Shown here piece after piece: positions 1,986-39,958 of a stretch of 39,958 nucleotides of DNA. How positions within the stretch are numbered: the first letter of the stretch is position 1; each line of letters opens with the position of its first letter. The notes beneath the pieces are model-generated. The model was not told where the DNA came from. It searched no databases and saw only the letters and a program-made list of their open reading frames with translations. Location of the stretch: NCBI GenBank assembly GCA_036391215.1, contig DASWAI010000084.1:1-39958 (forward strand). Direction: 5' to 3'. The stretch comes from Gemmatimonadales bacterium (lineage in GTDB: Bacteria > Gemmatimonadota > Gemmatimonadetes > Gemmatimonadales > GWC2-71-9). The translations under genes were made by a program, and so were the position numbers.

Positions 1986-2003
1986 ACCACTTTAGGACGG
2001 CTA

Positions 2004-3881: not shown

Positions 3882-3905
3882 CCGTCAGCCATCAGGAGCA
3901 CTGTC

Positions 3906-4532: not shown

Positions 4533-4542
4533 GGCCCGAGGC

Positions 4543-12679: not shown

Positions 12680-12685
12680 GGCCGA

Positions 12686-14581: not shown

Positions 14582-14607
14582 CTCATCTCCGCGGTACATT
14601 GAGCGCC

Positions 14608-16070: not shown

Positions 16071-16076
16071 GCGCCG

Positions 16077-16508: not shown

Positions 16509-16617
16509 GTCGTCCTCCCGAAGTGGGTCGTTTCCGAATCTACACCGAATCCTTCCCGACCCGGCGCTCGTCGGGTTAGGTTGTACGCCGTTTCCCGAAC
16601 CCCCCCTCCAGCGCCGG

Positions 16618-18771
16618 ATGGTGCCGATGCGCCGCACCTTGTTTCGCCTCGCAACTCCCGTCCTCGTCCTGACACTGACGATCGCCGCCGGGCGGCCCGT
16701 GAACGCGCAGGCGGCGCCCGCCGGCACGGACGCGGCGAATGTGACCGGCTTCGTCAAGGAGTTCGGGACGATGTGGACCTTCGACGCGCCGCCGCTCGAC
16801 TACTGGAAGGCGCGTTACGGCTTCAGCCCGGACCAGGCCTGGCTCGACCACGTGCGGCTCGCGTCGGTGCGCCTGCCGATCTGCTCGTCCTCGTTCGTGT
16901 CGTCCGAAGGTCTCGTGATGACGAACCACCACTGCGGCCGCGCCTGCATCACGGCGGTATCGCCGCCGGACACGAGCTACCAGCGGACCGGGTTCGTGGC
17001 GCGCACCGTGTCGGAGGAGAAGAAGTGCCCCGGCCTCTACGTGGACCAGCTCGTGGCGATCGGGGACGTCACGCAGAAGATCCGCGCCCGGGTCACCGCG
17101 CCCACGGCGGGCCAGCAGGTCGCCCAGCGGGACGCCGCGATCCAGGCGATCCAGGACGAATGCCAACAGCAGTCGGGCAACGTCTGCCAGGTGGTCACGT
17201 TCTATCAGGGCGGGCAGTACTCCCTCTACCAATACAAGCGCTACTCCGACGTGCGTCTGGTGATGGCGCCGGAGGAGGAGATCAGCTTCTACGGCGGCGA
17301 CCCGGACAACTTCACCTATCCCCGGTACGATCTCGACCTGACCCTGCTCCGGGTCTACGAGAACGACGCGCCCATGAAGACGAAGGACTTCCTCAAGTGG
17401 AGCGGGGCCGGCGCGAAGGAGGGCGACCTGGTCTTCGTGATCGGGAATCCGGGCTCCACGGGGCGGCTGCTCACGGTGGCCCAGATGGAGTACCTGAGGG
17501 ACGTGACCTACCCGGCGCAGCTGGCCCAGCTCAAGCGGACCATCGGCATCTACCAGGAGGCCATGTCGCGAAGCGAGGATGCCCGCCGCCAGTGGGAGAA
17601 CCAGCTCTTCTACGCTCAGAACTCCTTCAAGGCGATCACCGGGTACCAGGCCGGGCTGCTCGACACCGCCATCATGGCCAGGAAGCACACCTTCGAGCGC
17701 GACTTCCGGGCCCGCGTGAATCGCGATCCCAGGCTCCGGGCCCGGTACGGCGACGCCTGGACCAGGATCGCGGAGGCGCTCCGGCAGGAACGCGCCGTCG
17801 CGGCCAAGTCGCGGTACTACGGCTTCGGCGGCTCGCAGCTCCTGGCGCTCGCCGGCATCATCGTGCGGGTTCCGGAGCAGGGGGCGCTGCCCGACTCGGC
17901 GCGGCTCCCGGCCTACCGGGGTGAGGGGCTGGAGAACGCCCGGCGGGTGGCGGGGGGTGACGTGCCGATCGACAAGGAGCTGGAGAAGCTCACCCTGACC
18001 GCGCAGCTCACGGCGGCCAAGCGGGAGCTTCCTGCCTCTGACCCGTATCTCGCCGCGCTGCTCCAGGGCCGGAGCCCCGAGGTTGCCGCGGAGGCGCTGG
18101 TCGAGCAGACGACCCTGGCCGACCCCGCCGCGCGGAAGGCGCTGCTCGACGGCGGCGCCGCGGCGGTGCGGGCCTCCACCGATCCCATGGTCGTCGCGGC
18201 GCGCCGCATCGCGCCGCTCTCGCGCGCGGTCGCCATGCGGGTGGACCGGCTCGAGTCCACCGCGTCGGCCAACGCGGAGCGGATCGGGCAGGCGCTCTTC
18301 GCGGCCTACGGCACCTCGCTTCCGCCGGACGCGACGTTCACGCTGCGGATCAGCGACGGGGTCGTGAAGGGCTATCCAATGAACGGGACCAGGGCGCCGT
18401 ACAAGACCAGCTTCTATGGTCTCTACGGCCGCGCCGCCGACTTCGACGACCAGCCCCCGTTCCGCATCCCGCAGCGCTGGGAGGCGGCGCGCGACCGGCT
18501 CGATCTCTCGACGCCGTTCGACTTCGTCATGACCAACGACATCATCGGGGGCAACTCGGGAAGCCCGGTCATCAACCGGGACGGCGAGGTGGTCGGTCTC
18601 ATCTTCGACGGCAACATCGAGAGCCTGCCCAACCGGTTCATCTACACCGACGAGGTCGCGCGGTCGGTGGCGGTGCACTCGCGGGCGATCACCGAGGCGC
18701 TCCGGAAGGTGTACGACGCGGGGCGGATCGCGGACGAGCTGGAGGGGACGGCCAAGGTCAGCCAGGAGTGA
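16618..18771 (+). CDS. S46 family serine peptidase (dipeptidyl-peptidase 7/11-like), secreted
   Basis: Signal peptide, catalytic His in VMTNHHCG, catalytic Ser in IIGGNSGSPVINRDGEVVGLIFDGN, and a long helical insert typical of S46. Confidence 0.9.
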   Translation: MVPMRRTLFRLATPVLVLTLTIAAGRPVNAQAAPAGTDAANVTGFVKEFGTMWTFDAPPLDYWKARYGFSPDQAWLDHVRLASVRLPICSSSFVSSEGLVMTNHHCGRACITAVSPPDTSYQRTGFVARTVSEEKKCPGLYVDQLVAIGDVTQKIRARVTAPTAGQQVAQRDAAIQAIQDECQQQSGNVCQVVTFYQGGQYSLYQYKRYSDVRLVMAPEEEISFYGGDPDNFTYPRYDLDLTLLRVYENDAPMKTKDFLKWSGAGAKEGDLVFVIGNPGSTGRLLTVAQMEYLRDVTYPAQLAQLKRTIGIYQEAMSRSEDARRQWENQLFYAQNSFKAITGYQAGLLDTAIMARKHTFERDFRARVNRDPRLRARYGDAWTRIAEALRQERAVAAKSRYYGFGGSQLLALAGIIVRVPEQGALPDSARLPAYRGEGLENARRVAGGDVPIDKELEKLTLTAQLTAAKRELPASDPYLAALLQGRSPEVAAEALVEQTTLADPAARKALLDGGAAAVRASTDPMVVAARRIAPLSRAVAMRVDRLESTASANAERIGQALFAAYGTSLPPDATFTLRISDGVVKGYPMNGTRAPYKTSFYGLYGRAADFDDQPPFRIPQRWEAARDRLDLSTPFDFVMTNDIIGGNSGSPVINRDGEVVGLIFDGNIESLPNRFIYTDEVARSVAVHSRAITEALRKVYDAGRIADELEGTAKVSQE

Positions 18772-28185: not shown

Positions 28186-28274
28186 ACGGAGCCCACCCGT
28201 GCGACGGGCGGCCCGGTGCGCCGGCGCCGCCCGTCGTCTTCCTTACCCGCACCCGCAACGGACGCCGATCACCT

Positions 28275-29276
28275 ATGGTCAGCCGCTGGAAGGTCCGGCT
28301 CGCCCTGTCGCTCCTCGCCGCCGGCCCGGCGAAGGCCCTGCCCGCGCAGACCGCGGGCGCCACGGCCGCCGATCTCGCCGTTCGCCTCGCCGGCATGACG
28401 GCCGTGACCGGCTACGAGCAGCGGATGGTGGACACCCTGCTCACCCTGCTCCCGGGCTCCGAGCGCGACCGCGCGGGAGACGCGGTGCTCGCGCTCGGGA
28501 GCGGCGCGCCCCGCAGGCTCGCCGCCTGCCCCGTGGACGAGACCGGCTACGCCGTGGGCCAGGTGCGGCCCGACGGGTGGCTCACGCTGCACCGCTCGCC
28601 GGTGAGGCTGCGGGTTCCGGGCCCGCTCTTCGACCAGCAGCTCGAGGGGCAGCGGGTGACGGTGTTCGGGAGGCGCGGCGCGGTCCCGGGCGTGGTCGCC
28701 ATCCGGTCCATCCACCTCACCCGTGGGCGCGCATCCATTCCGAACGAGCCGTTCACGTCGGACGACGGGTTCGTCGATATCGGCGCGGCCAGCGCCCGCG
28801 GAGTGGCGGCACTCGGCGTCGGCGTGCTGAGCCCGGTGGCGCTCGCCAAGCGACCGCACCGCTACGGCAGCGACCGGCTGGCGGCCCCGATGGCCGGGCG
28901 GCGGGCGGCGTGCGCGGCGCTGCTGGCAGCGGTCCGGCGGATGACGGCGGGCCGGGGGACGGCACCGGCGCCGGCGCCGGGCACGACGGTGGTCGCGTTC
29001 GTGGTGGAGCAGCAGCTCGAGGCGCGGGGCCTGCTCACGGTCGCGACCACCCGGGGTCCGTTCGACGAGACCTGGATCGCGGACGACTCCGCGGGCGTCG
29101 CCGCCATCGAGGCCGCCACGCTTCCGGCGGGCCCGCGCGCGGCCCTCGGCCGGGTCCATGGCTGGGAGGTCGGCACGAAGTACCCCGGCACGGCGGTCGA
29201 GACCGTTTCCCTCGGCGAGGTGGAGCAGACCAGCGCGACGATCGCGGACTGGCTCCGTGGGGAGGCCGGCCAATGA
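28275..29276 (+). CDS. M42 peptidase-like protein lacking metal-binding/catalytic residues (predicted inactive paralogue), with signal peptide
   Basis: It aligns by eye with the downstream M42 protein, but AHMDEIG is CPVDETG, MDDRVG is MAGRRA, REEIG is EQQLE, and YAHSP is YPGTA. N-terminal signal MVSRWKVRLALSLLAAGPAKALPAQ. Confidence 0.7.
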   Translation: MVSRWKVRLALSLLAAGPAKALPAQTAGATAADLAVRLAGMTAVTGYEQRMVDTLLTLLPGSERDRAGDAVLALGSGAPRRLAACPVDETGYAVGQVRPDGWLTLHRSPVRLRVPGPLFDQQLEGQRVTVFGRRGAVPGVVAIRSIHLTRGRASIPNEPFTSDDGFVDIGAASARGVAALGVGVLSPVALAKRPHRYGSDRLAAPMAGRRAACAALLAAVRRMTAGRGTAPAPAPGTTVVAFVVEQQLEARGLLTVATTRGPFDETWIADDSAGVAAIEAATLPAGPRAALGRVHGWEVGTKYPGTAVETVSLGEVEQTSATIADWLRGEAGQ

Positions 29277-30358
29277 CATGCCCCGTCATCGCCCTGCTCG
29301 GGCTCGCCCTGGCCGGCCCGCTCGCCGCCCAGGAGCCCGCGCGCATCGCGGAAGCCCAGGCGGTGCTCGCGCCGCTGATCGAGAGTTACGGGGTCTCCGG
29401 CAGGGAGGGCCCGGTGCGCGCGACAGTGGAGCGGCTGCTCCCCCCCTGGGCCCGGGCGGAGACCGACACCGCCGGCAACCTCTGGGTCCGCGCGGGCAAG
29501 GGCGATCCGGTGGTCGTCTTCGTCGCCCACATGGACGAGATCGGCTTCCTGGTGAGCGGCATCCGGGACGACGGCTCGCTCGACCTCACCCGGCGCGGCG
29601 GGTTCTTTCCCTCGCTGTTCGAGGCGGAGCCCGCGCTGGTGCATACCGAGGCCGGCCCGGTGCCGGGCGTGTTCACCCCCCGCGACTCGGCGCCCGCGAG
29701 CCCGCGCCGCATGCCCGGGCCGTTCCGGGTGGATGTCGGGACCACGTCCCGCGCGGCCACCGAGGCGCTGGGGGTCGAGGTGGGCCAGGGCGTGACGATG
29801 CCCAAGCACTACACCCGGCTCGCGGGCACCCGGGCCAGCGGGCGCGCGATGGACGACCGGGTGGGCTGCACCGCGCTGCTGCTGGCGCTCCGGCACCTCG
29901 ATCCGGCCCGCCTCCGGCACGAGGTCGTGTTCCTCTTCAGCGTGCGGGAGGAGATCGGGCTCGAGGGCGCGGAAGCGGCGGCCGCCGCGCTGGGGACGCG
30001 GACGCGGCGGGTGCACGCAATCGACACGTTCGTGTCCGCCGATTCCCCGCTCGAGCCGCAGGCCTTCGCGGTGGCGCCGATCGGCCACGGCCCGGTGGTC
30101 CGGGCGCTGGACCAGAGCTCGGTCACGCCGCCGGCGCTGGTGGACTCGGTCGTGGCTCTGGCGCGCGGCCGGGGGATCCCGCTCCAGACCGGCGCCACCA
30201 ACGGCGGGAACGACGGCTCGGTCTTCGGACCCTGGGGCGTGCCGGACGTTCCGATCGGCTGGCCGCTCCGCTACGCCCACTCCCCCGCGGAGGTGGTGGA
30301 TCTCGAGGACGTGGCGCATCTGGGCGACGTGATCGCAGCGCTCGCGGAGCGCTGGTAG
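29273..30358 (+). CDS. M42 family metallopeptidase (TET/FrvX/YsdC-like aminopeptidase), with signal peptide
   Basis: All hallmark motifs are present: VAHMDEIGF, GRAMDDRVGC, SVREEIGLEGA, HAIDTF, GGNDG, LRYAHSPAEVV. Its ATG overlaps the upstream stop (ATGA at 29273-29276). Signal MTCPVIALLGLALAGPLAAQ. Confidence 0.85.
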   Translation: MTCPVIALLGLALAGPLAAQEPARIAEAQAVLAPLIESYGVSGREGPVRATVERLLPPWARAETDTAGNLWVRAGKGDPVVVFVAHMDEIGFLVSGIRDDGSLDLTRRGGFFPSLFEAEPALVHTEAGPVPGVFTPRDSAPASPRRMPGPFRVDVGTTSRAATEALGVEVGQGVTMPKHYTRLAGTRASGRAMDDRVGCTALLLALRHLDPARLRHEVVFLFSVREEIGLEGAEAAAAALGTRTRRVHAIDTFVSADSPLEPQAFAVAPIGHGPVVRALDQSSVTPPALVDSVVALARGRGIPLQTGATNGGNDGSVFGPWGVPDVPIGWPLRYAHSPAEVVDLEDVAHLGDVIAALAERW

Positions 30359-30437: not shown

Positions 30438-31628
30438 ATGCGAACGCGCGGCCCACTCGCCCTCGCCTTCTCGGGCGGCCTCGACACCAGCTTCTGCGTC
30501 CCCCGGCTCGCCGAGGACGGGTGGACGGTGCACACCGTCTACGTGAACACCGGCGGCGCGAGCGCCGCCGAACGCGTCGCGATCGCCGCCCAGGCGCGCG
30601 CGGTGGGTGCCGCCGAGCACCATGAGGTGGACGCCCGCGCCGCCGTCTTCGATCGCTTCGTCCGGTTCCTGATCCAGGGCAACATCCTCCGGGGCGAGGT
30701 CTATCCCCTGAGCGTCTCCGCCGAGCGGACGCAGCAGACGCTCTCGGTGGTGGAGACGGCGCGGGCCATCGGCGCCACGGCGGTGGCGCACGGCTCCACC
30801 GGGGCCGGCAACGACCAGATCCGCTTCGACGTCGCCCTCCGCGTCCTCGCGCCCGAGCTCGAGATCGTCACGCCCATCCGCGACCTGGGCGTCACCCGCG
30901 AGCAGGCGGTGGCGTACCTGAAGGCGCGCGGCCTGCCGGTGCCGGAGAAGGCCGGCGCCTATTCCATAAACCGGGGCCTCTGGGGCACGACCTGGGGCGG
31001 GGGCTGGACCCACGACACCTGGGCCGGCCCGCCGGACGAGCTGCTCGAGCCGCCCGGCGGCGCGCCGGCGGCGCGGGAGATCGTGCTCGGCTGGACCCGC
31101 GGCGTGCCCGTGACGCTCGACGGCGCCGCGCTCGACGGCCCGGCGCTGGTGGAGCGGCTCAACCAGCTGGCCGAGGCCTACGGCTTCGGCCGGGGCATCC
31201 ACGTGGGCGAGACGGCGCTCGGCATAAAGGGCCGGATCGGGTTCGAGGCCGGCGCCGCGCTGGTGCTCATCGCGGCGCACCGGGAGCTGGAGAAGCTGGT
31301 GCTCACGCGGTGGCAGAGCTACTGGAAGGACCAGCTTGGCCGCTTCTACGGCGACCGCCTGCACGAGGGCCAGTACTTCGACCCGGCGCTGCGCGACATC
31401 GAGGCGCTGATCACCAGCTCGCAGGCGCGGGTGACCGGCGAGACCCGGGTGCGGCTCGCGCCCGGCCGGTTCCAGGTCGTGGGGACCCGCAGCCCGCACT
31501 CGATGATGGACCGGAGCGTCGCCACCTACGGCGAGGAGAACCGGCTCTGGACCGGCGACGAGGCCCGCGCCTACGCCCGGATCGCCGCGATTCCCTCGCT
31601 GCTCGCAGCGCGGGCGAGCAGCAAATGA
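30438..31628 (+). CDS. argG: Argininosuccinate synthase
   Basis: LAFSGGLDTS, AHGSTGAGNDQIRF, and the expected length (396 aa). The in-frame TAA at 30429-30431 rules out a longer N-terminus. Confidence 0.95.
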   Translation: MRTRGPLALAFSGGLDTSFCVPRLAEDGWTVHTVYVNTGGASAAERVAIAAQARAVGAAEHHEVDARAAVFDRFVRFLIQGNILRGEVYPLSVSAERTQQTLSVVETARAIGATAVAHGSTGAGNDQIRFDVALRVLAPELEIVTPIRDLGVTREQAVAYLKARGLPVPEKAGAYSINRGLWGTTWGGGWTHDTWAGPPDELLEPPGGAPAAREIVLGWTRGVPVTLDGAALDGPALVERLNQLAEAYGFGRGIHVGETALGIKGRIGFEAGAALVLIAAHRELEKLVLTRWQSYWKDQLGRFYGDRLHEGQYFDPALRDIEALITSSQARVTGETRVRLAPGRFQVVGTRSPHSMMDRSVATYGEENRLWTGDEARAYARIAAIPSLLAARASSK

Positions 31629-31664
31629 GCCCCAAAGCTGAAAGAGATCACCACAGCTGCAACT

Positions 31665-31742
31665 GCGAACCACAGAGGCACAGAGGCACCCAGTTGATCA
31701 CTCTGTGGTTTACCTCCGTGGCTCCGTGCCTCTGTGGTTTGC
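31665..31742 (+). repeat. Repeat-containing hairpin in the argG-X spacer (possible internal terminator/attenuator or processing site)
   Basis: GCGAACCACAGAGGCAC (31665-31681) pairs with GTGCCTCTGTGGTTTGC (31726-31742), 16 of 17 positions. The decamer CTCTGTGGTT is present twice (31701, 31730). There is a tandem CAGAGGCA duplication. The stem is followed by the T-rich TTTGCGGTTTCTT. Confidence 0.6.
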
Positions 31743-31785
31743 GGTTTCTTGCTGGCGTGCGATTCGCCGAATGGAGGAGCCCCGA

Positions 31786-32949
31786 ATGGTCGTAACCACG
31801 CGGGTGAAGCTGGACCGGATCTCATCGTCCACGCGCAACGCGCATCTCGGCGCGGAGGTGATTGTGGGCGACCAGATCATCGCGGCCGAGGGGTACGTGC
31901 TCGCCGTCCGAATTCTGGACGACAAGGCCACGTACAACACGATCGAGGATACCGGCGGGCGGATGGTGTCGCTCCGCGCCGGCGACGTGCTGGCCGGGAC
32001 GCTCGGCACCCGCCGCGCGCTACGGGGCTACGCCGGGGTCGTGCCCCCGACCATCGCCGTGGGCGACACGATCGAGGTGCTGAACCTCGGCGGGATCCTC
32101 GGCCGCTGCACGTCGGTCAACCCCGAGATCGGTCCCCCGTTCAAGGCCGAGGTGCTGGGCGCGATCCTCACCTTCCCCGAGCTGGGCGACAGGATCGGCC
32201 GGCCCGCGCACATCAAGGACCTGGCCGTACCTCCGGCCGAGCGGCTGGAGAGCGCCATTCCCGTGGTCTACGTCGCCGGCACCTGCATGAACGCCGGGAA
32301 GACGGTGGCCGCGACCGAGCTGGTGCGGGGGCTCGCGCGCTCGGGGCTCCGCGTGGCCGCGGCCAAGCTCACCGGCGTCTCGCTCATGCGGGACGCGCTG
32401 TCCATGCAGGACGCCGGCGCCGTGGCGGCGCTCACCTTCAACGACGTGGGGATCGCCAGCACGCACGCGGGGGTCACGGTCACCACGGCCAAGGGGATCT
32501 TCAACCGGCTGGCGCAGGCCAAGCCCGACGTCATCGTGGCCGAGCTGGGCGACGGGATCCTGGGCGAGTACGGCGTGCAGGACATCCTGCGCGACGCCGA
32601 GCTCACCGGGGTCGGCGCGGCCTGGGTGATGGCGGCGCCCGACCCGGTCGCCTGCTGGGGCGCCGCCGAGCTGATGCAGCGGGAGTACGGGCTGCCGATC
32701 ACCGCGATCACCGGCCCGGCCACGGACAACGAGGTGGGCAACGTCTACATCACGGCCGAACTCGGGCTCCCGGCGCACAATGCGCGGCGGGACGCGGCCG
32801 GGCTGGTGGCCCGGGTGCGCGAGGCGCTGACGAGCTGGGCGCAGGCAGCGGCGGGGGTCGGCCCGAGGGGGGTGCGCCCCGAAGCGCTGTCGGCTGGCGC
32901 GGAGGGGCGCGCTCCCCTCACGGCGACCCCCGCCGCAACCGTCGCGTGA
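31786..32949 (+). CDS. Uncharacterised protein with a BioD/CobB/DUF1611-like P-loop domain, embedded in the arg operon
   Basis: ATG at 31786 is preceded by GGAGGAG with a 6-nt spacer. Its stop overlaps the argC GTG (GTGA). It has high-GC3 coding, a P-loop AGTCMNAGKT (aa 164-173) followed by GLRVAAAKLTG, and DVIVAELGDG. It has no GNAT, ATP-grasp or kinase motifs. Confidence 0.75.
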   Translation: MVVTTRVKLDRISSSTRNAHLGAEVIVGDQIIAAEGYVLAVRILDDKATYNTIEDTGGRMVSLRAGDVLAGTLGTRRALRGYAGVVPPTIAVGDTIEVLNLGGILGRCTSVNPEIGPPFKAEVLGAILTFPELGDRIGRPAHIKDLAVPPAERLESAIPVVYVAGTCMNAGKTVAATELVRGLARSGLRVAAAKLTGVSLMRDALSMQDAGAVAALTFNDVGIASTHAGVTVTTAKGIFNRLAQAKPDVIVAELGDGILGEYGVQDILRDAELTGVGAAWVMAAPDPVACWGAAELMQREYGLPITAITGPATDNEVGNVYITAELGLPAHNARRDAAGLVARVREALTSWAQAAAGVGPRGVRPEALSAGAEGRAPLTATPAATVA

Positions 32950-33986
32950 AGGTCGCCGTCGTCGGCGCCGGCGGGTACGTCGGCGGCGAGTTGCTTCGCC
33001 TGCTGCTCCAGCATCCGCGGGTGACCGAGTGCACGGCGACCAGCCGGAGCCAGGCGGGGAAGCCCATCGCCGACACCCATCCGGCGCTGGCCGGCCTCAC
33101 CGACGCCCGGTTCTCGGGGCAGTCGGCGGGCGAGGCGGCGCGGGGGCAGGACGTCGTCTTCCTGTCCCTGGAGCACGGCGAATCGTCCGCCGTCGCGGGG
33201 GAGGTCCTGGATGCGGGGCCCGGGCTGGTGGTGGACCTCGCCGCGGACTTCCGGGTCGAGGACCTTCGCCTCTACGAGCGCTACTACGGCCCGCACGCGG
33301 CGCCGGCGCTCGTGCCCCGGTTCGTGTACGGGCTGGCCGACGTGCGGGGCGAGCGGTTGCGGGGGGCCCGCGCGATCGCGGCGCCGGGCTGCTTCGCCAC
33401 CGCGGCGCAGCTCGCCCTGTATCCGCTGGCGCGGCTGCGGCTGGACGCGGCGCCCGCGCTCTTCGCGGTGACGGGATCGAGCGGGGCGGGCGTGCACCCG
33501 AAGCCCACCACGCACCATCCCATGCGGGCGCACAACCTCTTCGCCTACTCGGTGCTGAGCCACCGGCACGAGGCGGAGGTGCTGCTGCGCTGGCGGGAGT
33601 GGACCGGCCGGCCCGACGCCGCGGCGCGGCTGATGACGCACTCGGGACCGTTCGTTCGGGGCATCCATCTCACCCTGCACGCGTGGCTCGCGCCCGGGGC
33701 GCTGCCCGACGGGACGGCGTCGGTCACCGAGCTGTACCGGCTGGCGTTCGAAGGCCGACCGTTCGTGCGGGTGCTCGACCGGCCCCCGGAGCTCACCCAC
33801 GTCGTGGGGACCAACTACGCCCTGCTGCACGCGGCAGCGGACGGTGACGGTCGCGAAGTGCAGGTGATGGTGGTCATCGACAATCTGGTGAAGGGGGCCG
33901 GCGGCCAGGCGATCCAAGCGATGAATCTCGCACTGGGCATTCCGGAGACCGAAGGGCTCTCGGGAGGAGGGATCTACCCATGTTGA
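32946..33986 (+). CDS. argC: N-acetyl-gamma-glutamyl-phosphate reductase
   Basis: VKVAVVGAGGYVGGELLRLL, the catalytic Cys segment APGCFATAAQLAL, and IDNLVKGAGGQAIQ. Confidence 0.9.
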   Translation: MKVAVVGAGGYVGGELLRLLLQHPRVTECTATSRSQAGKPIADTHPALAGLTDARFSGQSAGEAARGQDVVFLSLEHGESSAVAGEVLDAGPGLVVDLAADFRVEDLRLYERYYGPHAAPALVPRFVYGLADVRGERLRGARAIAAPGCFATAAQLALYPLARLRLDAAPALFAVTGSSGAGVHPKPTTHHPMRAHNLFAYSVLSHRHEAEVLLRWREWTGRPDAAARLMTHSGPFVRGIHLTLHAWLAPGALPDGTASVTELYRLAFEGRPFVRVLDRPPELTHVVGTNYALLHAAADGDGREVQVMVVIDNLVKGAGGQAIQAMNLALGIPETEGLSGGGIYPC

Positions 33987-35140
33987 ACAGCGAGTCGGTG
34001 GGGCCGTCGCCCCACCTCCTTCCCGTGTACGCCCAGATGCCGGTGCGGCCGGTATCGGGGCGGGGCTCGTGGCTCTTCGACGAGGACGGCCGGGAGTGGC
34101 TCGACGCCTACGGCGGGCACGCGGTCGCCTCGACCGGGCATTGCCACCCGCACGTGGTCCAGGCCATCGGGCAGCAGGCGGCGACGCTGCTCTTCTATTC
34201 CACCGCCGTCCCGCACCCCAACCGGGAGCGGCTGGCGGACCGTCTGGCCGCGCTCTGTCCCGACCCGCTCGCGCGGGTGTTCTTCTGCAACTCGGGCGCG
34301 GAAGCGAACGAGAACGCCCTCGCCATCGCCCGGCGGCACACCGGCCGGCAGATGATCGTGTCGCTGCGCGGCGGGTGGCACGGCCGGACGGCCGCGACCC
34401 TCGCGATCACCGACGGCGCCAAGTACGAGGAAGGGGCCCGGCGCGCCGGCGTGCCCCTGTCGCGCAAGGTCCCGGTGGACGACGTGGCCGCGCTGGACGC
34501 GGCCGTGGACGAGACGATCGCCGCGGCGGTCATGGAGCCGGTGCAGGGGCTGGCCGGCGCGCGCGACCTGAGCGTCGAATTCCTGCGCGCGGCCCGGCGG
34601 CTCTGCGACGCCCGCGGCGCGCTGCTGGTGTTCGACGAAGTGCAGTGCGGCGTCGGCCGGTGCGGGGCGTTCACCGCGGCGGAAGCGTGCGGCGTCGTGC
34701 CCGACGTCCTCACGCTCGCCAAGGGGCTCGCCTCCGGGCTCCCCATCGGCGCGGTGATGACGACGCCGGCGATCGGCGACCGGCTCGCGGTGGGCGACCT
34801 CGGCAGCACCTTCGGCGGCGGACCCGTGCCCTGCGCCGCCGCGCTGGCCACGCTCGACGTGATCGAGCGGGAGAATCTGATCGCCAACGCCATCGAGGTA
34901 GGCGACTACATCCGGGCCGGTGCGCTCGCGCTGGGCATTCCGGCCGTGACGGGCCGCGGGCTCCTCGTGGGGCTCAGGCTGGGCCGGCCGGCCGTGCCGG
35001 TCCAGCGGGCGCTGTTCGAGCGTCGCGTGCTCACGGGCACGGCCAGTGATCCCGAGGTCCTGCGGCTGATGCCGCCCCTGTCGTTCAGCCGCCGCGAGGC
35101 GGACCTCCTCCTCGGCGCGCTCCGGGAGGTGCTGGAGTGA
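33980..35140 (+). CDS. argD: Acetylornithine aminotransferase (class III PLP aminotransferase)
   Basis: CNSGAEANE, FDEVQCGVGRCG, and the PLP-lysine segment LTLAKGLASGLPIGA. Its position in the arg operon supports the call. It overlaps argC by 7 nt. Confidence 0.9.
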   Translation: MLNSESVGPSPHLLPVYAQMPVRPVSGRGSWLFDEDGREWLDAYGGHAVASTGHCHPHVVQAIGQQAATLLFYSTAVPHPNRERLADRLAALCPDPLARVFFCNSGAEANENALAIARRHTGRQMIVSLRGGWHGRTAATLAITDGAKYEEGARRAGVPLSRKVPVDDVAALDAAVDETIAAAVMEPVQGLAGARDLSVEFLRAARRLCDARGALLVFDEVQCGVGRCGAFTAAEACGVVPDVLTLAKGLASGLPIGAVMTTPAIGDRLAVGDLGSTFGGGPVPCAAALATLDVIERENLIANAIEVGDYIRAGALALGIPAVTGRGLLVGLRLGRPAVPVQRALFERRVLTGTASDPEVLRLMPPLSFSRREADLLLGALREVLE

Positions 35141-36156
35141 CCAAGCGCGACTTCCTCGCGATGGAGGACTGGAGCGCGGACGCGCTCGCCGGACTGCTGG
35201 CGCTGGCGGCCCGGATCAAGCGGGGAGAGATCGCCGGCGGGCTCGAGCGGAAAGTGCTGGCGATGGTCTTCATGGACCCGAGCCTCCGCACCCGCACCAG
35301 CTTCGAGACCGCGATGTTCCTGCACGGCGGCCACGCCGTGGTGCTGGAGCCGGGGAAGGGGAGCTGGAGCCTGGAGACCGAGCCGGGCGCGGTGATGGAC
35401 GGGTCCACCGTCGAGCACATCATCGACGCCGCGCGCGTCCTCGGGCGCTACGCTGACGCGCTGGCCGTGCGCGCGTTTCCCCGCGGGGCCGAGTGGGCCG
35501 TGGCCCGGCGGGACGACGTGATCCGGAACTTCGCCCGGTACTGCGAGAAGCCGGTGATCAACCTCGAGTCCACCCGGCGGCATCCGTGCCAGGGCCTGGC
35601 GGACGCGCTCACGCTGAAGGAGAAGCTGGGCGAAACCGAGGGCAAGCGCTTCGTGCTCGCCTGGGCCTGGCACCCCAAGGCGCTGCCCACCGCGGTGCCG
35701 GCCAGCGCCGCGATCGCGGCGGCCTCACTCGGCATGGAGATCGTGATCGCCCGGCCCGACGGCTACGAGCTGGACCCGGACGACACGGCGCTCATCCGGC
35801 GCATCGCGCAGGAGCGGGGCGGCGAGTTCGTCCACATCATCAACGACCCGGACGAGGCGCTGGTGGGGGCCGACGCGGTCTACGCCAAGTCCTGGGGGTC
35901 GGTCAAGCTGTTCGGCCGGCCGGAGGAGGAGCACGAGCTCCGGGCGCCGCTCCGCGACTGGCGGGTCACCGAGCAGCGGGTGCGGTCCACCCGCGGCCGG
36001 AAGGGGATCGTGATGCACTGCCTGCCGGTGCGAAGGAACGTGGAGATCGACGACGCGGTGCTCGAGGGCCCCAACTCGGTCGTGGTGGACCAGGCCGAGA
36101 ACCGGCTGCACGTGCAGCGGGCGCTGCTGCTCGAGCTGATCGGGAAGACCGGGTAA
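35137..36156 (+). CDS. argF': N-acetylornithine carbamoyltransferase-type transcarbamylase (argF' family)
   Basis: SLRTRTSFE, GRYADALAVRAF, HPCQGLAD, YAKSWG in place of the OTCase SMG loop, HCLPVRRNV, and ENRLHVQRA. From memory it is colinear with Xanthomonas AOTCase. Confidence 0.85.
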   Translation: MTKRDFLAMEDWSADALAGLLALAARIKRGEIAGGLERKVLAMVFMDPSLRTRTSFETAMFLHGGHAVVLEPGKGSWSLETEPGAVMDGSTVEHIIDAARVLGRYADALAVRAFPRGAEWAVARRDDVIRNFARYCEKPVINLESTRRHPCQGLADALTLKEKLGETEGKRFVLAWAWHPKALPTAVPASAAIAAASLGMEIVIARPDGYELDPDDTALIRRIAQERGGEFVHIINDPDEALVGADAVYAKSWGSVKLFGRPEEEHELRAPLRDWRVTEQRVRSTRGRKGIVMHCLPVRRNVEIDDAVLEGPNSVVVDQAENRLHVQRALLLELIGKTG

Positions 36157-36168
36157 ATCGGAGACGAG

Positions 36169-37104
36169 ATGTCCATCGACACCACGAAAGGCATTGCGGG
36201 GCTGAAGGGCGCGCTCCGCTACGTCCGCGCCTACCGCGACCACGTCTTCGTCGTGAAGCTCGGCGGCGAGGTGCTGAGCGACCCGGACGTGCGCGACCAC
36301 GTCGCCGGCCAGCTGTCGCTCCTCTCGTCGCTCAGCATCCGTCTCGTAGTGGTACACGGCGGCGGGCCCCAGGCGACCGCGCTCAGCCGGCGGCTGGGCC
36401 AGGAGCCGAGGATGGTGGCCGGGCGGCGGGTCACGGACGACGCGGCGCTGGAGGTGGCCAAGATGGTGTACGCCGGCCAGCTCAACGTGGACCTGCTCGC
36501 CGCGCTGCGCGAGCACAAGGTGCAGGCCGTCGGCCTCTCGGGGATCGATGCCGACCTGCTCACGGCGCACCGCCGGCCGCCGGTGTCGGTCGTGGACGAC
36601 GACGGCCGGACGGTCCAGGTGGACTACGGCCACGTCGGCGACATCGACCGGGTGGACCCGCGCGTGCTGGCCACGCTGATGGAGGCGCGGTTCATGCCCG
36701 TGGTCGCGAGCCTGGCGGGCGACGAGGACGGCGGGGTCTACAACGTCAACGCCGACACGGTGGCCGAATCGCTGGCCGTGGCACTCCGGGCGCAGAAGCT
36801 CATCTTCCTGACCGGCGCGCCGGGCGTGCTGCGCGACCGGAACGACCCGACCACCCTCGTGACGTTCGCGGATCCGGACGACCTCGCCGGTCTCATGGCG
36901 AGCGGCGCGCTGGCCGGCGGCATGCGCCCCAAGGTCGAGGCCTGCATCCGCGCCGCCACCAGCGGCGTGGAGCGCACCCATATCATCGACGGCCGCGCGC
37001 CCGACGCCCTCCTGCTGGAGGTGTTCACCGGCGCGGGGTGCGGGACCATGATCGTGGCCCGGAAGGAGAAGGCGACGTACCTGGGAGTGGACCTTGCCGG
37101 GTGA
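36169..37104 (+). CDS. argB: Acetylglutamate kinase
   Basis: VVKLGGEVL, VVVHGGGPQ, VNADTVA. At 311 aa it has only the kinase domain and no fused GNAT. Confidence 0.95.
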   Translation: MSIDTTKGIAGLKGALRYVRAYRDHVFVVKLGGEVLSDPDVRDHVAGQLSLLSSLSIRLVVVHGGGPQATALSRRLGQEPRMVAGRRVTDDAALEVAKMVYAGQLNVDLLAALREHKVQAVGLSGIDADLLTAHRRPPVSVVDDDGRTVQVDYGHVGDIDRVDPRVLATLMEARFMPVVASLAGDEDGGVYNVNADTVAESLAVALRAQKLIFLTGAPGVLRDRNDPTTLVTFADPDDLAGLMASGALAGGMRPKVEACIRAATSGVERTHIIDGRAPDALLLEVFTGAGCGTMIVARKEKATYLGVDLAG

Positions 37105-38164
37105 GATCGAGCTGCTCGCGGAGCTGGTGGGCATTCCGTCGGTGAGCGGTAGCGAAGAGACGATCGCGGGGTTCGTGGAGCAGACGGCGCGCTCGTGGGG
37201 GCTCGACGTCGAGCGGGACGAGACATCGGTCCGGGTGGAGGTGAAGGGCTTCGCCGCCGGCCAGACGCTCGCCTTCGTCTCGCACCTGGACACGGTCCCC
37301 CCCGGGGCCGGCTGGACCCGCGACCCTTTCGTTCCGGCGACCGAGGGCGCCCGGCTCTACGGCCGGGGCTCGGGCGACGCCAAGGCCTCGGTCGCGGCGA
37401 TGCTCTTCGCGGCGCGCGACGTGATGGAGCGCGGGCGGATGGACGCCGGTCGGCTTCTGGTCGTGCTGGGCTACGGCGAGGAGACCAAGAACACCACCAT
37501 GGAACAGGCGGTCGGGCGGATCGGGCAGGTGGACGCGGCGGTGGTCGGAGAGCCCACCAACCTGGACATCGCGATCGCCCAGCGCGGGCTCATGATGGTC
37601 GACCTGATCGCCGAGGGAGACCAGCGCCATGCCGGCTACGCGGCCACCGACGGCGGGTTCACCAACGCGGTCACGGTCCTGGCGCAGGACCTCCTCCGGC
37701 TGCCCCGTCTCTTCGAGGACCGCCCCCACCCGACGCTGGGCGTCACCACCGCCACGCCCACGATGCTCGAGGCCGGCGTGAGTCGGAACGTGACCCCGCC
37801 CGTCGCCAAGGCCGTGCTCGACGTGCGGAGCACACCCGCCTGGACCCACGACGAGATCGCGGACCGGCTCCGGGACTCGCTCGCGTCGCGGGTGGTGGTG
37901 ACCTCGCGCCGCCTGGTGCCGTGCGAGACGCCGCCCGGATCCCGCGTCCTCGGCGCGGCGCTCCGGGCCCGGCCGGAGGCCGCCACGTTCGGCAGTCCCA
38001 CCTGCTCCGACTGGGTGTTCCTGCGCCACGTGGACGCCATCAAGTGCGGCCCCGGCACCAGCCGCCGCTCCCATACGGCGGACGAGTACGTGGATCTCCC
38101 CGAGGTCACCGCGGCCCGCGGGTTCTACGCGGAGCTCGCGCGGGCCTACCTGGGCGGCGCATGA
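37094..38164 (+). CDS. argE: M20 family deacylase (acetylornithine/acetylcitrulline deacetylase)
   Basis: LVGIPSVSG, SHLDTVP, GRGSGDAKA, GYGEETKN, GEPT, SHTADEYV. The TTG start overlaps the argB 3' end. Confidence 0.8.
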   Translation: MPGEIELLAELVGIPSVSGSEETIAGFVEQTARSWGLDVERDETSVRVEVKGFAAGQTLAFVSHLDTVPPGAGWTRDPFVPATEGARLYGRGSGDAKASVAAMLFAARDVMERGRMDAGRLLVVLGYGEETKNTTMEQAVGRIGQVDAAVVGEPTNLDIAIAQRGLMMVDLIAEGDQRHAGYAATDGGFTNAVTVLAQDLLRLPRLFEDRPHPTLGVTTATPTMLEAGVSRNVTPPVAKAVLDVRSTPAWTHDEIADRLRDSLASRVVVTSRRLVPCETPPGSRVLGAALRARPEAATFGSPTCSDWVFLRHVDAIKCGPGTSRRSHTADEYVDLPEVTAARGFYAELARAYLGGA

Positions 38165-39546
38165 GGGCGCGCGCGCGCACGCTGTGGACCGCCGCGCCGG
38201 GACTCGACCGGCGCATGCTCGCCTACACCGTGGGCGACGACCCGCACTGGGACGCAAGGCTCCTCCGCTGGGACGTGCTGGGGAGCCTCGGGCACGTCGA
38301 GGGCCTGCGCGCCGCGCGGCTGCTCTCTGGCGCGGAGCACCGGCGGCTCCGGGCGGGGCTCCGGGCCGCCCTCGTTGCCGTCGAGCGGGGCCGCCTCCGG
38401 ATCGGGCCGGCGCACGAGGACGTCCACTCGGCGGTCGAGGACTGGCTCACCCGCCGCCTCCCGGGCGTGGGCGAGCGGCTTCACACCGGCCGCTCCCGGA
38501 ACGACCAGGTCGCCTGCGACCTCCGTCTCTATCTCAAGGACGCGCTGCTGTCGCTCCACGACGAGGCGCTCGCGCTTGCCGAGGCGCTGCTCGCGTTCGC
38601 CGCCCGGCACCGGACCGCGCTCTGGCCCGGCTACACCCACCAGCGTCGTGCGATGCCTTCATCGGCCGGGCTCTGGGCGCTCGCCTTTGCCGAGGGGCTC
38701 CTCGATACCGCCGAGGCGCTGCCCGCGGTGTGGGCGGCCGTGGATCGCTCGCCGCTTGGCAGCGCGGCGGGGTACGGCGTGCCGCTGCCGCTCCGGCGCG
38801 AGGTCGCGGCCCGGGCACTCGGCTTCGCCGGCCCCGAGCACGCCGTCAGCGCGGTGCAGAACGGCCGGGGGAAGCTCGAGGCCGCGGTGCTGTTCTGGTG
38901 CACGCAGCTGGGCCACGAGACGGGAAAGCTGGCGCAGGACGTCGTGCTCCTGAGCGGCGAGGAGTTCGGCTTTATCGTCGTGCCGCCGAGGCTCGCGACC
39001 GGCTCCAGCATCATGCCGCACAAGCGGAACCCCGACCTCTTCGAGCTGACCCGCGCGCGCGCGGCGCTCGTGGAGGGAGACCTCGCCGCCGTGCTCCATC
39101 TCAAAGGCAAGCTGCCGAGTGGCTACCACCGGGACTTCCAGCTGCTCAAGGAGCCGCTCTTCCGCGGCCTGGACCGGACGCGGGAGATGCTCGCCATGTT
39201 GGCCCATGCCGTGCCCCGGCTCGGCGTGGACCGGCGGCGGGCGGCGGCGGCGCTCGCGGGCGGCACGCTGGCGACCGACGAGGTGATGCGGCGAGTGGAG
39301 CGCGGGCGGGCCTTCCGCCTCGCGTACCGCGAGGTGGCCGAGGCGGTTCGCCGGGGCGAGCCGCTACCCGAGCCCTCGCGGGCCGGCCTTCTGGCGCGCC
39401 GTCGCGCCACCGGCAACCTCGGGAATCTCGGCCTTCCCGCGGTGCGCGCCCGGCTCCGGCGCGCCCGCCGGTGGGCTGAGCGCGAGCGGCGGCGGTTCGA
39501 CGCCGCGATGGCGCGGCTCGCGGGTCCAGGGAGGCGCGGGCGGTGA
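38161..39546 (+). CDS. argH: Argininosuccinate lyase
   Basis: HTGRSRNDQV, GYTHQRRAMP, and the signature GSSIMPHKRNPD. ATGA overlap with argE. Confidence 0.9.
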   Translation: MRARARTLWTAAPGLDRRMLAYTVGDDPHWDARLLRWDVLGSLGHVEGLRAARLLSGAEHRRLRAGLRAALVAVERGRLRIGPAHEDVHSAVEDWLTRRLPGVGERLHTGRSRNDQVACDLRLYLKDALLSLHDEALALAEALLAFAARHRTALWPGYTHQRRAMPSSAGLWALAFAEGLLDTAEALPAVWAAVDRSPLGSAAGYGVPLPLRREVAARALGFAGPEHAVSAVQNGRGKLEAAVLFWCTQLGHETGKLAQDVVLLSGEEFGFIVVPPRLATGSSIMPHKRNPDLFELTRARAALVEGDLAAVLHLKGKLPSGYHRDFQLLKEPLFRGLDRTREMLAMLAHAVPRLGVDRRRAAAALAGGTLATDEVMRRVERGRAFRLAYREVAEAVRRGEPLPEPSRAGLLARRRATGNLGNLGLPAVRARLRRARRWAERERRRFDAAMARLAGPGRRGR

Positions 39547-39958
39547 CGGCCGACCGGAAGCGGCGGCATCTGCGCATCCTGGAGCTGATCAGCACTCGAG
39601 CGGTGCGGACGCAGGAGGAGCTGGCGGACATGCTTGCGGCGGACGGCTGGGAGGTGACGCAGTCCTCGGTGAGCCGGGACATCGCGGCGCTCCGGCTGGT
39701 CAAGATGGACGGCGCCTATCGCCGTCCGCCGCCGAGTCCGCGGGTGGTCACCGACCCGGACGAGCAGCGGATCGCGGAGGGCGTGCTCTCGTGCGACAGC
39801 GCGGGCGATACGTTGGTCGTGGTCCGCACCGCGCCGGGCGAGGCGAACCGGGTCGCGGTGGCGATGGACCGGCTGGCTTGGCCCGAGATCGTGGGGACCA
39901 TCGCGGGAGACGACACGATCTTCGTCGCGGTGCGGGGGGCGGTGGCCCAGCGGCGGGC
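39543..39958 (+). CDS. argR: Arginine repressor ArgR (3' end outside the window)
   Basis: This gene is not in the ORF track; I translated it manually from the GTG at 39543 (GTGA overlap with argH): VTADRKRRHLRILELISTRAVRTQEELADMLAADGWEVTQSSVSRDIAALRLVK...VGTIAGDDTIFV. It shows a winged-helix N-domain and the GTIAGDDT oligomerisation/arginine-binding motif. Confidence 0.85.
   Translation, partial: MTADRKRRHLRILELISTRAVRTQEELADMLAADGWEVTQSSVSRDIAALRLVKMDGAYRRPPPSPRVVTDPDEQRIAEGVLSCDSAGDTLVVVRTAPGEANRVAVAMDRLAWPEIVGTIAGDDTIFVAVRGAVAQRR

What the first reader, a model, noticed from the sequence alone, without database searches (positions are those of the whole stretch)
31786..32949. Unknown P-loop protein translationally coupled inside an arginine operon that lacks any N-acetylglutamate synthase
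Seen in the sequence:
- A 387-codon, well-coded ORF sits between argG and argC.
- It has a strong SD (GGAGGAG) and a GTGA overlap onto argC.
- It matches none of the arginine enzymes I know.
- The layout is a beta-rich domain of about 150 aa, then AGTCMNAGKT, GLRVAAAKLTG and DVIVAELGDG. This is the motif order of the dethiobiotin-synthetase/CobB-CobQ/DUF1611 class of P-loop enzymes, not of GNATs, ATP-grasp ligases or kinases.
- The operon encodes argB, C, D, F', E, G, H and argR. It has no argA, no argJ, no GNAT domain, no fused ArgA/B (argB is 311 aa) and no ArgH(A) fusion (argH is 461 aa).

Inference: this gene may supply the missing first step, N-acylation of glutamate, by a non-canonical mechanism. 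That could be ATP-dependent, or acetyl-CoA-dependent as reported for the DUF1611 protein DgcN, which acetylates D-glutamate. Alternatively it may be another arginine-linked function not yet described.
Basis: partly seen in the sequence, partly recalled or inferred. Interest (0 to 1): 0.78.

Follow-up and report, generated by a model that had tools for sequence, protein, structure and literature searches.

The report
Candidate P-loop N-succinylglutamate synthase
An unannotated but widely conserved P-loop protein inside this arginine operon most likely does the missing first step of arginine synthesis, attaching a succinyl (not acetyl) group to glutamate; a 2024-2026 preprint already predicts this role for what appears to be the same family, and nobody has tested it by experiment.

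Summary
The ORF is real. It spans 31786-32949 (387 aa), has a GGAGGAG Shine-Dalgarno site and a GTGA overlap onto argC, and has thousands of homologues.

It fits no Pfam or NCBIfam model. The AlphaFold model (pLDDT 93.5) has two parts:
- a beta-rich N-domain with no PDB counterpart;
- a SIMIBI-class P-loop domain closest to dethiobiotin synthetase (BioD).

In 79 of 80 genomes from at least six phyla, the gene lies directly upstream of argC inside an arg operon.

All 68 neighbouring ArgF' proteins carry the N-succinylornithine-type specificity residues. The window has V92/P184/E303, where acetyl-type enzymes have E/N/K. The pathway is therefore succinyl-based, and the missing enzyme is an N-succinylglutamate synthase.

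Price et al. (bioRxiv 10.1101/2024.10.14.618325) already made this prediction for Steroidobacter ACG33_RS14135, from the same kinds of evidence and without experiments. I could not align the two proteins directly.

New here: the family keeps all five BioD Mg/phosphoryl-transfer residues (K172, T173, K194, D203, E253). DgcN lacks two of them. An ATP-dependent succinate-glutamate ligase is therefore as plausible as a succinyl-CoA transferase.

This is a new member of an already-predicted kind. Interest is moderate.

The parts
31786..32949 (+). Gene X: 387-aa two-domain P-loop protein, candidate N-succinyl-L-glutamate synthase
   Evidence: ORF and translation. Homologues. AlphaFold model with pLDDT 93.5. 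Conserved arg-operon context.
31773..31779 (+). Shine-Dalgarno GGAGGAG, 6 nt upstream of the ATG
   Evidence: Read directly from the sequence.
31786..32235 (+). N-terminal beta-rich domain (res 1-150). Conserved residues are S14, G36, E54, R76 and P87. Presumed substrate-binding domain.
   Evidence: Domain model with pLDDT 96. No PDB structural match; best E is 0.16. Conservation.
32236..32850 (+). SIMIBI/BioD-like P-loop domain (res ~151-355)
   Evidence: Foldseek hits to BioD, SRP GTPases, MeaB, HypB, DgcN and DUF1611. Profile hits to BioD. hhalign against E. coli BioD gives E 5e-5.
32278..32304 (+). Walker A motif GTCMNAGKT. K172 is in 58/58 members and T173 in 57/58.
   Evidence: Aligns to BioD GTDTEVGKT.
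32365..32367 (+). K194 (AAKLTG), invariant. Equivalent to BioD K37.
   Evidence: Absent from DgcN, which has ATGQTG at this place.
32392..32394 (+). D203 (RDxL), D in 56/58 members. Equivalent to BioD D54.
32542..32544 (+). E253 (ELGDG), invariant. Equivalent to BioD E115 (Walker B / Mg ligand).
32851..32946 (+). Unconserved Ala/Gly/Pro-rich C-terminal tail
   Evidence: pLDDT below 50. Most homologues cover only ~91% of the query.
30438..31628 (+). argG (argininosuccinate synthase), upstream neighbour
   Evidence: NCBIfam. argG lies directly upstream of X in 74 of 80 loci.
32946..33986 (+). argC, starting with a GTGA overlap on X
   Evidence: TIGR01850, 327 bits. Directly downstream of X in 79 of 80 loci.
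33980..35140 (+). argD (N-acylornithine aminotransferase)
35137..36156 (+). argF', AOTCase/SOTCase family. Specificity residues V92, P184 and E303 point to N-succinylornithine carbamoyltransferase.
   Evidence: Criteria from PMC4581275. The best PDB match is the E92V mutant 3L06.
36169..37104 (+). argB (N-acylglutamate kinase, 311 aa, no fused acetyltransferase domain)
37094..38164 (+). M20 ArgE/DapE-family deacylase (predicted N-succinylcitrulline desuccinylase)
   Evidence: DapE models score slightly above the ArgE model.
38161..39546 (+). argH (461 aa, no ArgA fusion)
39543..39958 (+). argR (cut by the window end)
   Evidence: Translation. Arg_repressor Pfam hit on the 98%-identical contig.

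Best explanation
Gene X encodes the first enzyme of a succinyl-type arginine pathway. It is an N-succinyl-L-glutamate synthase that replaces the GNAT-type ArgA.

Proposed pathway:
1. X attaches succinyl to the alpha-amino group of L-glutamate.
2. ArgB, ArgC and ArgD convert the product to N-succinylornithine.
3. The SOTCase-type ArgF' carbamoylates it.
4. The M20 hydrolase removes succinate to give citrulline.
5. ArgG and ArgH finish the pathway.

Shown here:
- The gene is real and conserved.
- It is locked into arg operons across phyla.
- The ArgF' proteins linked to it are succinyl-type.
- Its catalytic domain is a BioD-like P-loop.

Inferred: the reaction itself.

I put the role at about 0.7. 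For the chemistry I lean slightly (about 55:45 within that) towards an ATP/Mg-dependent ligase. In that model the P-loop (K172/T173), K194, D203 and E253 phosphorylate succinate to succinyl phosphate, as BioD does with a carbamate. The glutamate amine, held by the novel N-domain (R76, E54, S14), then attacks it. The alternative is DgcN-like transfer from succinyl-CoA, with the P-loop holding the CoA phosphates.
For: Context:
- X is directly upstream of argC in 79 of 80 genome loci. These come from Gemmatimonadota, Myxococcota, Acidobacteriota, Elusimicrobiota, Planctomycetota and Proteobacteria.
- Relatives at 36-46% identity to the window protein over the aligned stretch, from Pyrinomonadaceae, a Woesearchaeota MAG and Ktedonobacteria, are also arg-linked.
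- X is the only conserved gene without an assigned step. N-acylation of glutamate is the only step without a gene in these operons.

Acyl group:
- 68 of 68 X-linked ArgF' proteins have non-Glu / Pro / non-Lys at the three AOTCase-versus-SOTCase discriminator positions (criteria).

Fold and catalytic residues:
- The fold is SIMIBI P-loop, with BioD as top hit and DgcN 7XRJ also hit.
- hhalign against E. coli BioD maps K15/T16/K37/D54/E115 onto K172/T173/K194/D203/E253. These are conserved in 56-58 of 58 members.

Independent support:
- Price et al. predict the same role for ACG33_RS14135. They report that its homologues never co-occur with ArgA homologues.
- Precedent for a P-loop N-acyltransferase acting on glutamate: DgcN, EC 2.3.1.312.
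Against: - No biochemical or genetic data exist for any member.
- Absence of ArgA/ArgJ from this genome could not be checked.
- One locus (L083) carries a short-NAGS-like GNAT just upstream of argG in the same operon as X, plus a second OTCase. X and a GNAT can therefore coexist.
- Distant relatives sit in non-arg contexts. These include phosphonate clusters next to ATCase/OTCase-like genes, and an EctA-like/PLP-enzyme neighbourhood.
- Homology to BioD is weak (hhalign probability 67%, E 5e-5), so the residue mapping is not certain.
- Few conserved basic residues are available to hold three carboxylates.
Confidence: 0.7

Rival explanations
1. Same role but DgcN-like chemistry. X transfers the succinyl group from succinyl-CoA to L-glutamate without ATP hydrolysis. 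The Walker A lysine binds the CoA phosphates and E253 acts as general base. This is nested within the role-level explanation above; the 0.3 is an absolute probability.
For: - DgcN (7XRJ) and DUF1611 (2OBN) are among the Foldseek hits.
- DgcN is an acetyl-CoA:D-glutamate N-acetyltransferase, EC 2.3.1.312.
- Price et al. base their prediction on this similarity.
- Bacteroidetes are thought to make N-succinylglutamate with an acyl-CoA-type GNAT.
Against: - X lacks the DgcN signatures GKM and ATGQTG. It keeps the GKT, Lys, Asp and Glu set that BioD uses for Mg-ATP chemistry.
- The X profile finds BioD but not DgcN in PDB sequences, even at E<=10.
- The N-domain differs from DgcN's.
Confidence: 0.3
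2. One reading: X makes N-acetylglutamate, from acetyl-CoA or from ATP plus acetate, for an N-acetylornithine-carbamoyltransferase pathway.
For: - NCBIfam names the ArgF' 'N-acetylornithine carbamoyltransferase' (414 bits).
- ArgB passes the acetylglutamate kinase model.
- DgcN is an acetyltransferase.
Against: - ArgF' has V92/P184/E303, where acetyl-specific enzymes have E/N/K. The best PDB match is the engineered E92V variant.
- No X-linked ArgF' among 68 has Glu92.
- The same NCBIfam/Swiss-Prot label is known to mis-name SOTCases.
Confidence: 0.07
3. X is not the first-step enzyme but an accessory arg-linked NTPase. It could be a metallochaperone or assembly factor for the M20 deacylase (as HypB, UreG and MeaB are for their partners), a regulator, or an enzyme tied to the carbamoyltransferase step.
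For: - Foldseek also hits the G3E chaperones MeaB and HypB.
- X-like genes recur next to carbamoyltransferases even outside arg operons.
- L083 has a NAGS-like GNAT as well as X.
Against: - X persists in operons with no M20 gene.
- It lacks G3E metal-binding and NKxD motifs.
- It has a strongly conserved extra domain with Arg, Glu and Ser residues, typical of a small-molecule site.
- This reading would leave the first step of the pathway without an enzyme.
- Price et al. report mutual exclusion with ArgA.
Confidence: 0.15

Closest known systems
[quoted passage not shown]
   Same: - A hypothetical protein fixed in arg operons with argB/C/D/F'/E/G/H/R.
- The neighbouring ArgF' is succinyl-type at position 92.
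- Weak Foldseek similarity to DgcN 7XRJ.
- Proposed to replace ArgA (compared).
   Different: - Direct sequence alignment could not be made, because the sequence was not retrievable. Family identity is inferred and very probable.
- The Steroidobacter cluster lacks ArgE; this operon has an M20 deacylase.
- The preprint says nothing about BioD-type residues or the N-domain.
DgcN, D-glutamate N-acetyltransferase (DUF1611; PDB 7XRJ; EC 2.3.1.312)
   Same: P-loop (SIMIBI) catalytic domain. [quoted passage not shown]
   Different: - X fails the PF07755 cutoff (19.5 vs 25 bits, 45 residues matched).
- DgcN has GKM and ATGQTG where X has GKT and AAKLTG.
- The N-domains differ: X's is beta-rich with no PDB match.
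- Substrate is L- not D-glutamate, the acyl group is probably succinyl, and the role is anabolic.
Dethiobiotin synthetase BioD (with the related CobB/CobQ and CTP synthase ATP domains)
   Same: - Best structural and profile match.
- All five Mg/phosphoryl-transfer residues align.
- In this class, ATP activates a carboxyl, carbamate or oxo group for attack by an amine (my own knowledge).
   Different: - Far below the family cutoffs (15.8 vs 83.3 bits).
- X has an extra 150-aa N-domain.
- Different substrates and an arg context, not a bio context.
Bacteroidetes/Caldithrix GNAT-type synthase (BT3761, Cabys_1732)
   Same: Supplies the first step of an ArgF'-type, succinyl-based arginine pathway. 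Encoded next to argG.
   Different: Unrelated fold (GNAT vs P-loop). X would be a non-orthologous displacement. No homologue of the one operon-linked GNAT found here (L083) occurs in any other held locus.

Membership tests
Alternative N-succinylglutamate synthase family of Price et al. (ACG33_RS14135) | Encoded inside arginine-biosynthesis gene clusters | tested here: met
   79 of 80 loci have X directly upstream of argC, and 74 of 80 have argG-X. The window operon is shown.
Alternative N-succinylglutamate synthase family of Price et al. (ACG33_RS14135) | Neighbouring ArgF' has a non-Glu (A/P/S/V/I/T/Q) residue at position 92 | tested here: met
   V92 in the window. 68 of 68 linked ArgF' are non-Glu, all have Pro at 185, and none has Lys at 302.
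Alternative N-succinylglutamate synthase family of Price et al. (ACG33_RS14135) | Weak structural similarity to DgcN (7XRJ) | tested here: met
   Foldseek rank 31, E 1.8e-4, rmsd 6.2 A over 236 columns.
Alternative N-succinylglutamate synthase family of Price et al. (ACG33_RS14135) | Sequence homology to A0A127FCT3 itself | not testable with these tools
   The sequence could not be retrieved. The last homology search, seeded with a proteobacterial member, returned no Steroidobacter entry.
Alternative N-succinylglutamate synthase family of Price et al. (ACG33_RS14135) | No ArgA/ArgJ-type enzyme in the same genome | not tested
   Only the 40-kb window and +/-10 kb loci are held. None of the ORFs scanned in the window is one. 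The preprint reports mutual exclusion. L083 is a possible exception.
DUF1611 / DgcN (PF07755) | Passes the Pfam gathering score over the P-loop domain | tested here: not met
   19.5 bits against a cutoff of 25, with only residues 155-199 matched. 13 of 58 family members hit weakly, while MobB and CbiA hit more often.
DUF1611 / DgcN (PF07755) | Signature GTDCxVGKM...ATGQTG, as in 7XRJ (2OBN and 2G0T matched the same probe strongly) | tested here: not met
   X has GTCMNAGKT and AAKLTG. The 7XRJ residues were read.
DUF1611 / DgcN (PF07755) | Shared two-domain architecture (N-terminal domain of DgcN/2OBN) | tested here: not met
   The N-domain model alone gives no PDB hit better than E 0.16, and neither 7XRJ nor 2OBN is among the 50 hits listed.
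Dethiobiotin synthetase BioD | Passes the family model (TIGR00347 / PF13500) | tested here: not met
   15.8 bits vs cutoff 83.3, and 12.4 vs 27.
Dethiobiotin synthetase BioD | Catalytic set K15, T16, K37, D54, E115 | tested here: met
   hhalign maps these to K172, T173, K194, D203 and E253, conserved in 56-58 of 58 members. This is a resemblance in mechanism, not family membership.
GNAT / ArgJ N-acetylglutamate synthases | GNAT or ArgJ (DmpA/OAT) fold or domain | tested here: not met
   No such Pfam, NCBIfam or PDB hit.
N-succinylornithine carbamoyltransferase (for the operon's ArgF') | A/S/P/V/Q at 92, P at 185 and V/I/E at 302 (X. campestris numbering) | tested here: met
   V, P and E.

The most novel reading that the evidence does not exclude
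X is a CoA-independent, ATP-dependent succinate:L-glutamate ligase. In this reading a BioD-type P-loop enzyme makes succinyl phosphate and amidates it with glutamate. The succinate released by the desuccinylase would be re-used, giving a succinate cycle analogous to the ArgJ acetyl cycle. This would be a new enzyme class for amino-group protection in amino-acid biosynthesis. Its relatives in phosphonate gene clusters might do the same for other amines.
Probability: 0.35. Interest if true: 0.75.

Novelty: new member of a known kind. Interest (0 to 1): 0.45.

Why it matters
If confirmed, the first step of arginine synthesis in Gemmatimonadota, many Acidobacteriota, Myxococcota, Elusimicrobiota, Ktedonobacteria and others is done by a P-loop enzyme unrelated to all known N-acylglutamate synthases. 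That would have several consequences:
- It would close a recurrent 'missing argA' gap in metabolic reconstructions of abundant soil phyla.
- It would extend the succinyl-type pathway well beyond Bacteroidetes.
- It would correct the widespread 'N-acetylornithine carbamoyltransferase' label.
- It would raise a clear mechanistic question, ATP versus succinyl-CoA, that one enzyme assay could settle.

The idea is already in a preprint, so the value here is independent corroboration, the BioD-type active-site argument and the novel N-domain.

Tried and rejected
- Pfam, NCBIfam and PDB sequence searches with the single protein gave only sub-threshold P-loop hits.
- The profile of 58 members against PDB sequences found FtsY, BioD and MobB P-loops only, with no DgcN.
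- The N-domain fold search found nothing credible. LexA-C-like hits at E 0.16 were rejected.
- The search for related loci with the 58-sequence alignment failed because it had no conserved stretch. It was repeated with 13 sequences.
- The idea that X always replaces a GNAT was checked with the L083 GNAT. That GNAT has no homologue in any other locus, but it is itself NAGS-like. It is kept as a caveat.
- I tried to retrieve the Steroidobacter protein through cluster look-ups and a third homology search. Both failed.
- The DgcN paper (PMC10030869) is not held.
- Carbamoyl-phosphate synthesis by X was considered and rejected, because Ktedonobacteria place X beside carAB.
- An ArgB-like kinase role was rejected because argB is present.
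- A metallochaperone role was rejected because X persists without an M20 gene.
- Promoter/terminator and Rfam scans of the region were uninformative.
Full report
**Observation**

- It starts at ATG 31786 and ends at TGA 32947-32949, giving 387 codons.
- GGAGGAG lies 6 nt upstream of the start.
- The argC start (GTG 32946) overlaps the stop as GTGA.
- The three quoted motifs are present. Third-position GC is 0.91, typical of the coding frames here.
- An in-frame ATG at 31771 is a possible alternative start, but homologues begin at the position matching 31786.
- The flanking genes are argG, argC, argD, an AOTCase/SOTCase-family carbamoyltransferase, argB (311 aa), an M20 ArgE/DapE-type hydrolase and argH (461 aa). 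argR follows.
- Most junctions overlap by 4-11 nt, which fits one translationally coupled operon.
- No GNAT, ArgJ or ArgA domain appears in any ORF I scanned across the 40-kb window.

**A real, large and unnamed family**

- The protein has more than 3211 homologues in the 90%-clustered database. The best are Gemmatimonadales 'hypothetical proteins'.
- In the 50%-clustered library, 1419 clusters reach E<=1e-3 and 167 reach E<=1e-30.
- No Pfam or NCBIfam model reaches its cutoff. There are only weak P-loop matches: DUF1611 at 19.5 bits against a cutoff of 25, plus MobB, CbiA and BioD.
- Across 58 diverse members the weak hits scatter over MobB (25), CbiA (23), DUF1611 (13) and AAA_26 (5).
- K172, K194, E253, D286, P87 and G171 are invariant. 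T173, D203, R76, E54 and S14 are conserved in 55-57 of 58 members.

**Structure**

- AlphaFold2 with the 58-sequence alignment gives pLDDT 93.5 and pTM 0.89. Only the last ~30 residues are disordered.
- Foldseek against the PDB matches only the C-terminal ~200-240 residues. The hits are SIMIBI-class P-loop proteins.
  - BioD is first (1DAE, E 1.8e-5, TM 0.52 on the target).
  - SRP/FtsY GTPases, MeaB and HypB follow.
  - DgcN 7XRJ is at rank 31 (E 1.8e-4) and DUF1611 2OBN at rank 34.
- The N-terminal 153 residues, modelled alone (pLDDT 96.2), have no credible PDB counterpart. The best E is 0.16.
- The architecture is therefore a novel beta-rich domain followed by a BioD-like P-loop domain.

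**Genomic context**

- In 80 genome loci, X lies immediately upstream of argC in 79. It follows argG in 74.
- The usual order is argG-X-argC-argD-argF'-argB-argE-argH-argR.
- The loci come from Gemmatimonadota, Myxococcota, Acidobacteriota (Thermoanaerobaculia), Elusimicrobiota, Planctomycetota and Proteobacteria.
- One Myxococcota-type layout is X-argC-argD-argB-argE-argR-argG-argH.
- A Planctomycetota genome keeps only argG-X together.
- More distant relatives (36-46% identity over the aligned stretch) are also arg-linked:
  - Pyrinomonadaceae: argR-argG-X-argC....
  - Unnamed contigs: argR-X-argC-argD-HAD-argF'-argB, and argR-argG-X-argC-argD-argF'-argB-argH.
  - The cultured Ktedonobacteria Tengunoibacter and Ktedonosporobacter: X-argF'-carA-carB.
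- X is the only conserved operon member without an assigned step. N-acylation of glutamate is the only step without a gene.

**Which acyl group**

- The review by Shi et al. (PMC4581275) gives three residues that separate the two enzyme types. N-acetylornithine enzymes have E92, N185 and K302. N-succinylornithine enzymes have A/S/P/V/Q, P and V/I/E.
- The window's ArgF' has V92, P184 and E303. Its best PDB match is the engineered E92V variant 3L06.
- All 63 ArgF' proteins next to X in the genome loci, and the 5 next to distant relatives, have a non-Glu residue (V/A/P/I/T), Pro, and E/V/I at these positions.
- GapMind (PMC7311316) documents that this family is routinely mislabelled as acetyl-specific. 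It also shows that Bacteroidetes use succinylated intermediates with a GNAT (BT3761) as the presumed N-succinylglutamate synthase.
- The pathway here is therefore predicted to be succinyl-based. The missing enzyme is an N-succinylglutamate synthase, not NAGS.

**Prior art**

[quoted passage not shown] Their evidence is:
  - homologues are virtually always in arg operons;
  - homologues never co-occur with homologues of P. aeruginosa ArgA;
  - the predicted structure weakly resembles DgcN 7XRJ;
  - 90-97% of 70 neighbouring ArgF' proteins have A/P/S/V/I/T at position 92.
- It is listed as a prediction without experimental support.
- My independent results match each of these points, so the window's gene very probably belongs to that family.
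- I could not obtain A0A127FCT3 to align it directly.

**Mechanism: what is new here**

- A profile of the P-loop domain finds BioD as the best PDB sequence match (E 5e-4).
- hhalign against E. coli BioD (probability 67%, E 5e-5, 118 columns) gives these alignments:

| X motif | BioD motif | X residue | BioD residue |
|---|---|---|---|
| GTCMNAGKT | GTDTEVGKT | K172, T173 | K15, T16 |
| AAKLTG | GYKPVA | K194 | K37 |
| RDAL | SDAL | D203 | D54 |
| VAELGDG | LVEGAGG | E253 | E115 |

- From my own knowledge of BioD, these five residues bind Mg2+ and the transferred phosphate.
- DgcN has GKM instead of GKT, and ATGQTG with no lysine at the K194 position. This is read from 7XRJ residues 140-202, fished out with a probe peptide.
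- X is therefore BioD-like rather than DgcN-like in its catalytic residues.
- In this enzyme class (BioD, CobB/CobQ, CTP synthase; my own knowledge), ATP activates a carboxyl-type group for attack by an amine.
- ATP + succinate + L-Glu -> N-succinyl-Glu + ADP + Pi is thus a natural reaction for X. It would recycle the succinate freed by the desuccinylase.
- The DgcN precedent (EC 2.3.1.312, acetyl-CoA dependent) keeps succinyl-CoA transfer fully open.
- My estimates: role about 0.7. Within that, ATP-dependent ligase about 55% and succinyl-CoA transferase about 45%.

**Complications**

- One MAG labelled Woesearchaeota (L083) has a short-NAGS-like GNAT directly upstream of argG in the same operon as X, plus a second OTCase. 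The GNAT scores 70 bits to NF005840 and also matches the acetyltransferase domain of ArgH(A) and ArgA. It has no homologue in any other locus.
- Relatives at 26-32% identity occur in other settings:
  - On Bacillus and Priestia plasmids, in phosphonate-type clusters next to ATCase/OTCase-like, ATP-grasp and M20 genes.
  - On a Paracoccus plasmid, in an unrelated neighbourhood.
  - On a cyanobacterial contig, beside a PLP enzyme and an EctA-like acetyltransferase.
- The wider family is therefore not restricted to arginine. The repeated pairing with a carbamoyltransferase and an M20 hydrolase fits a general 'protect, carbamoylate, deprotect' logic, but that is speculation.

**Verdict**

- It needs three corrections:
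  - the acyl group is succinyl, not acetyl;
  - the protein is not a DUF1611 member;
  - the idea has already been predicted in a preprint.
- The function remains unproven, and the ATP-versus-CoA question is open and easy to test.

Noticed in passing
window 28257-29276 and 29275-30358 (+): Two tandem M42-family (FrvX-like) peptidase genes sit directly upstream of argG on the same strand. M42 matches also lie upstream of argG, at varying distances, in many but not all Gemmatimonadales loci. Their role and any link to arginine are unknown.
   Followed up: partly
window 35137-36156 (+) and 68 related loci: NCBIfam NF003384 names these proteins 'N-acetylornithine carbamoyltransferase' (414 bits). 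All three specificity residues are of the N-succinylornithine type, so this is probably a systematic annotation error outside Bacteroidetes too.
   Followed up: yes
L083 8193-8666 and 17464-18399: In a MAG labelled Woesearchaeota, an X-containing arg operon also carries a short-NAGS-like GNAT before argG and a second, classical-looking OTCase after argH. Acetyl and succinyl routes may coexist there, or the bin may be chimeric.
   Followed up: partly
L087 7938-8966 (Bacillus paranthracis plasmid) and L088 7905-8966 (Priestia megaterium plasmid): Relatives of X at 26-27% identity lie in clusters with PEP mutase-family, split TPP decarboxylase, ATP-grasp, TauD, M20 and ATCase/OTCase-like genes. 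These look like phosphonate natural-product clusters. X-like enzymes may acylate other amines there.
   Followed up: partly
L082 and L085 (Tengunoibacter, Ktedonosporobacter) 10001-16640: In cultured Ktedonobacteria, X forms an operon with a SOTCase-type argF' (I/P/E) and carAB, away from argB/C/D. These are tractable organisms for genetics.
   Followed up: partly
L089 4558-7321: On a contig whose protein NCBI labels as a cyanobacterial MAG, an X homologue sits next to a Cys/Met-metabolism PLP enzyme and an EctA-like diaminobutyrate acetyltransferase. This is a non-arginine context.
   Followed up: no
L084 12234-12605; L090 11264-11929: Extra small genes are inserted in some X-type arg operons: a tRNA_bind-domain protein between argC and argD, and a HAD hydrolase between argD and argF'.
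   Followed up: no
window 31629-31785: The argG-X spacer is 157 nt, unusually long in an otherwise tightly overlapping operon. It holds no Rfam match and no sigma-70-like promoter. It has only a weak terminator-like hairpin on the opposite strand.
   Followed up: partly
window 25370-26935 (-): An OmpA-family outer-membrane protein has a long run of thrombospondin type-3-like calcium-binding repeats (DxDxDGVxDxxDKCPNTP).
   Followed up: no
window 798-5726 (+): A caa3-type cytochrome c oxidase cluster (COX2 with a fused cytochrome c, COX1, COX3, CtaG) follows an M24 peptidase gene.
   Followed up: no
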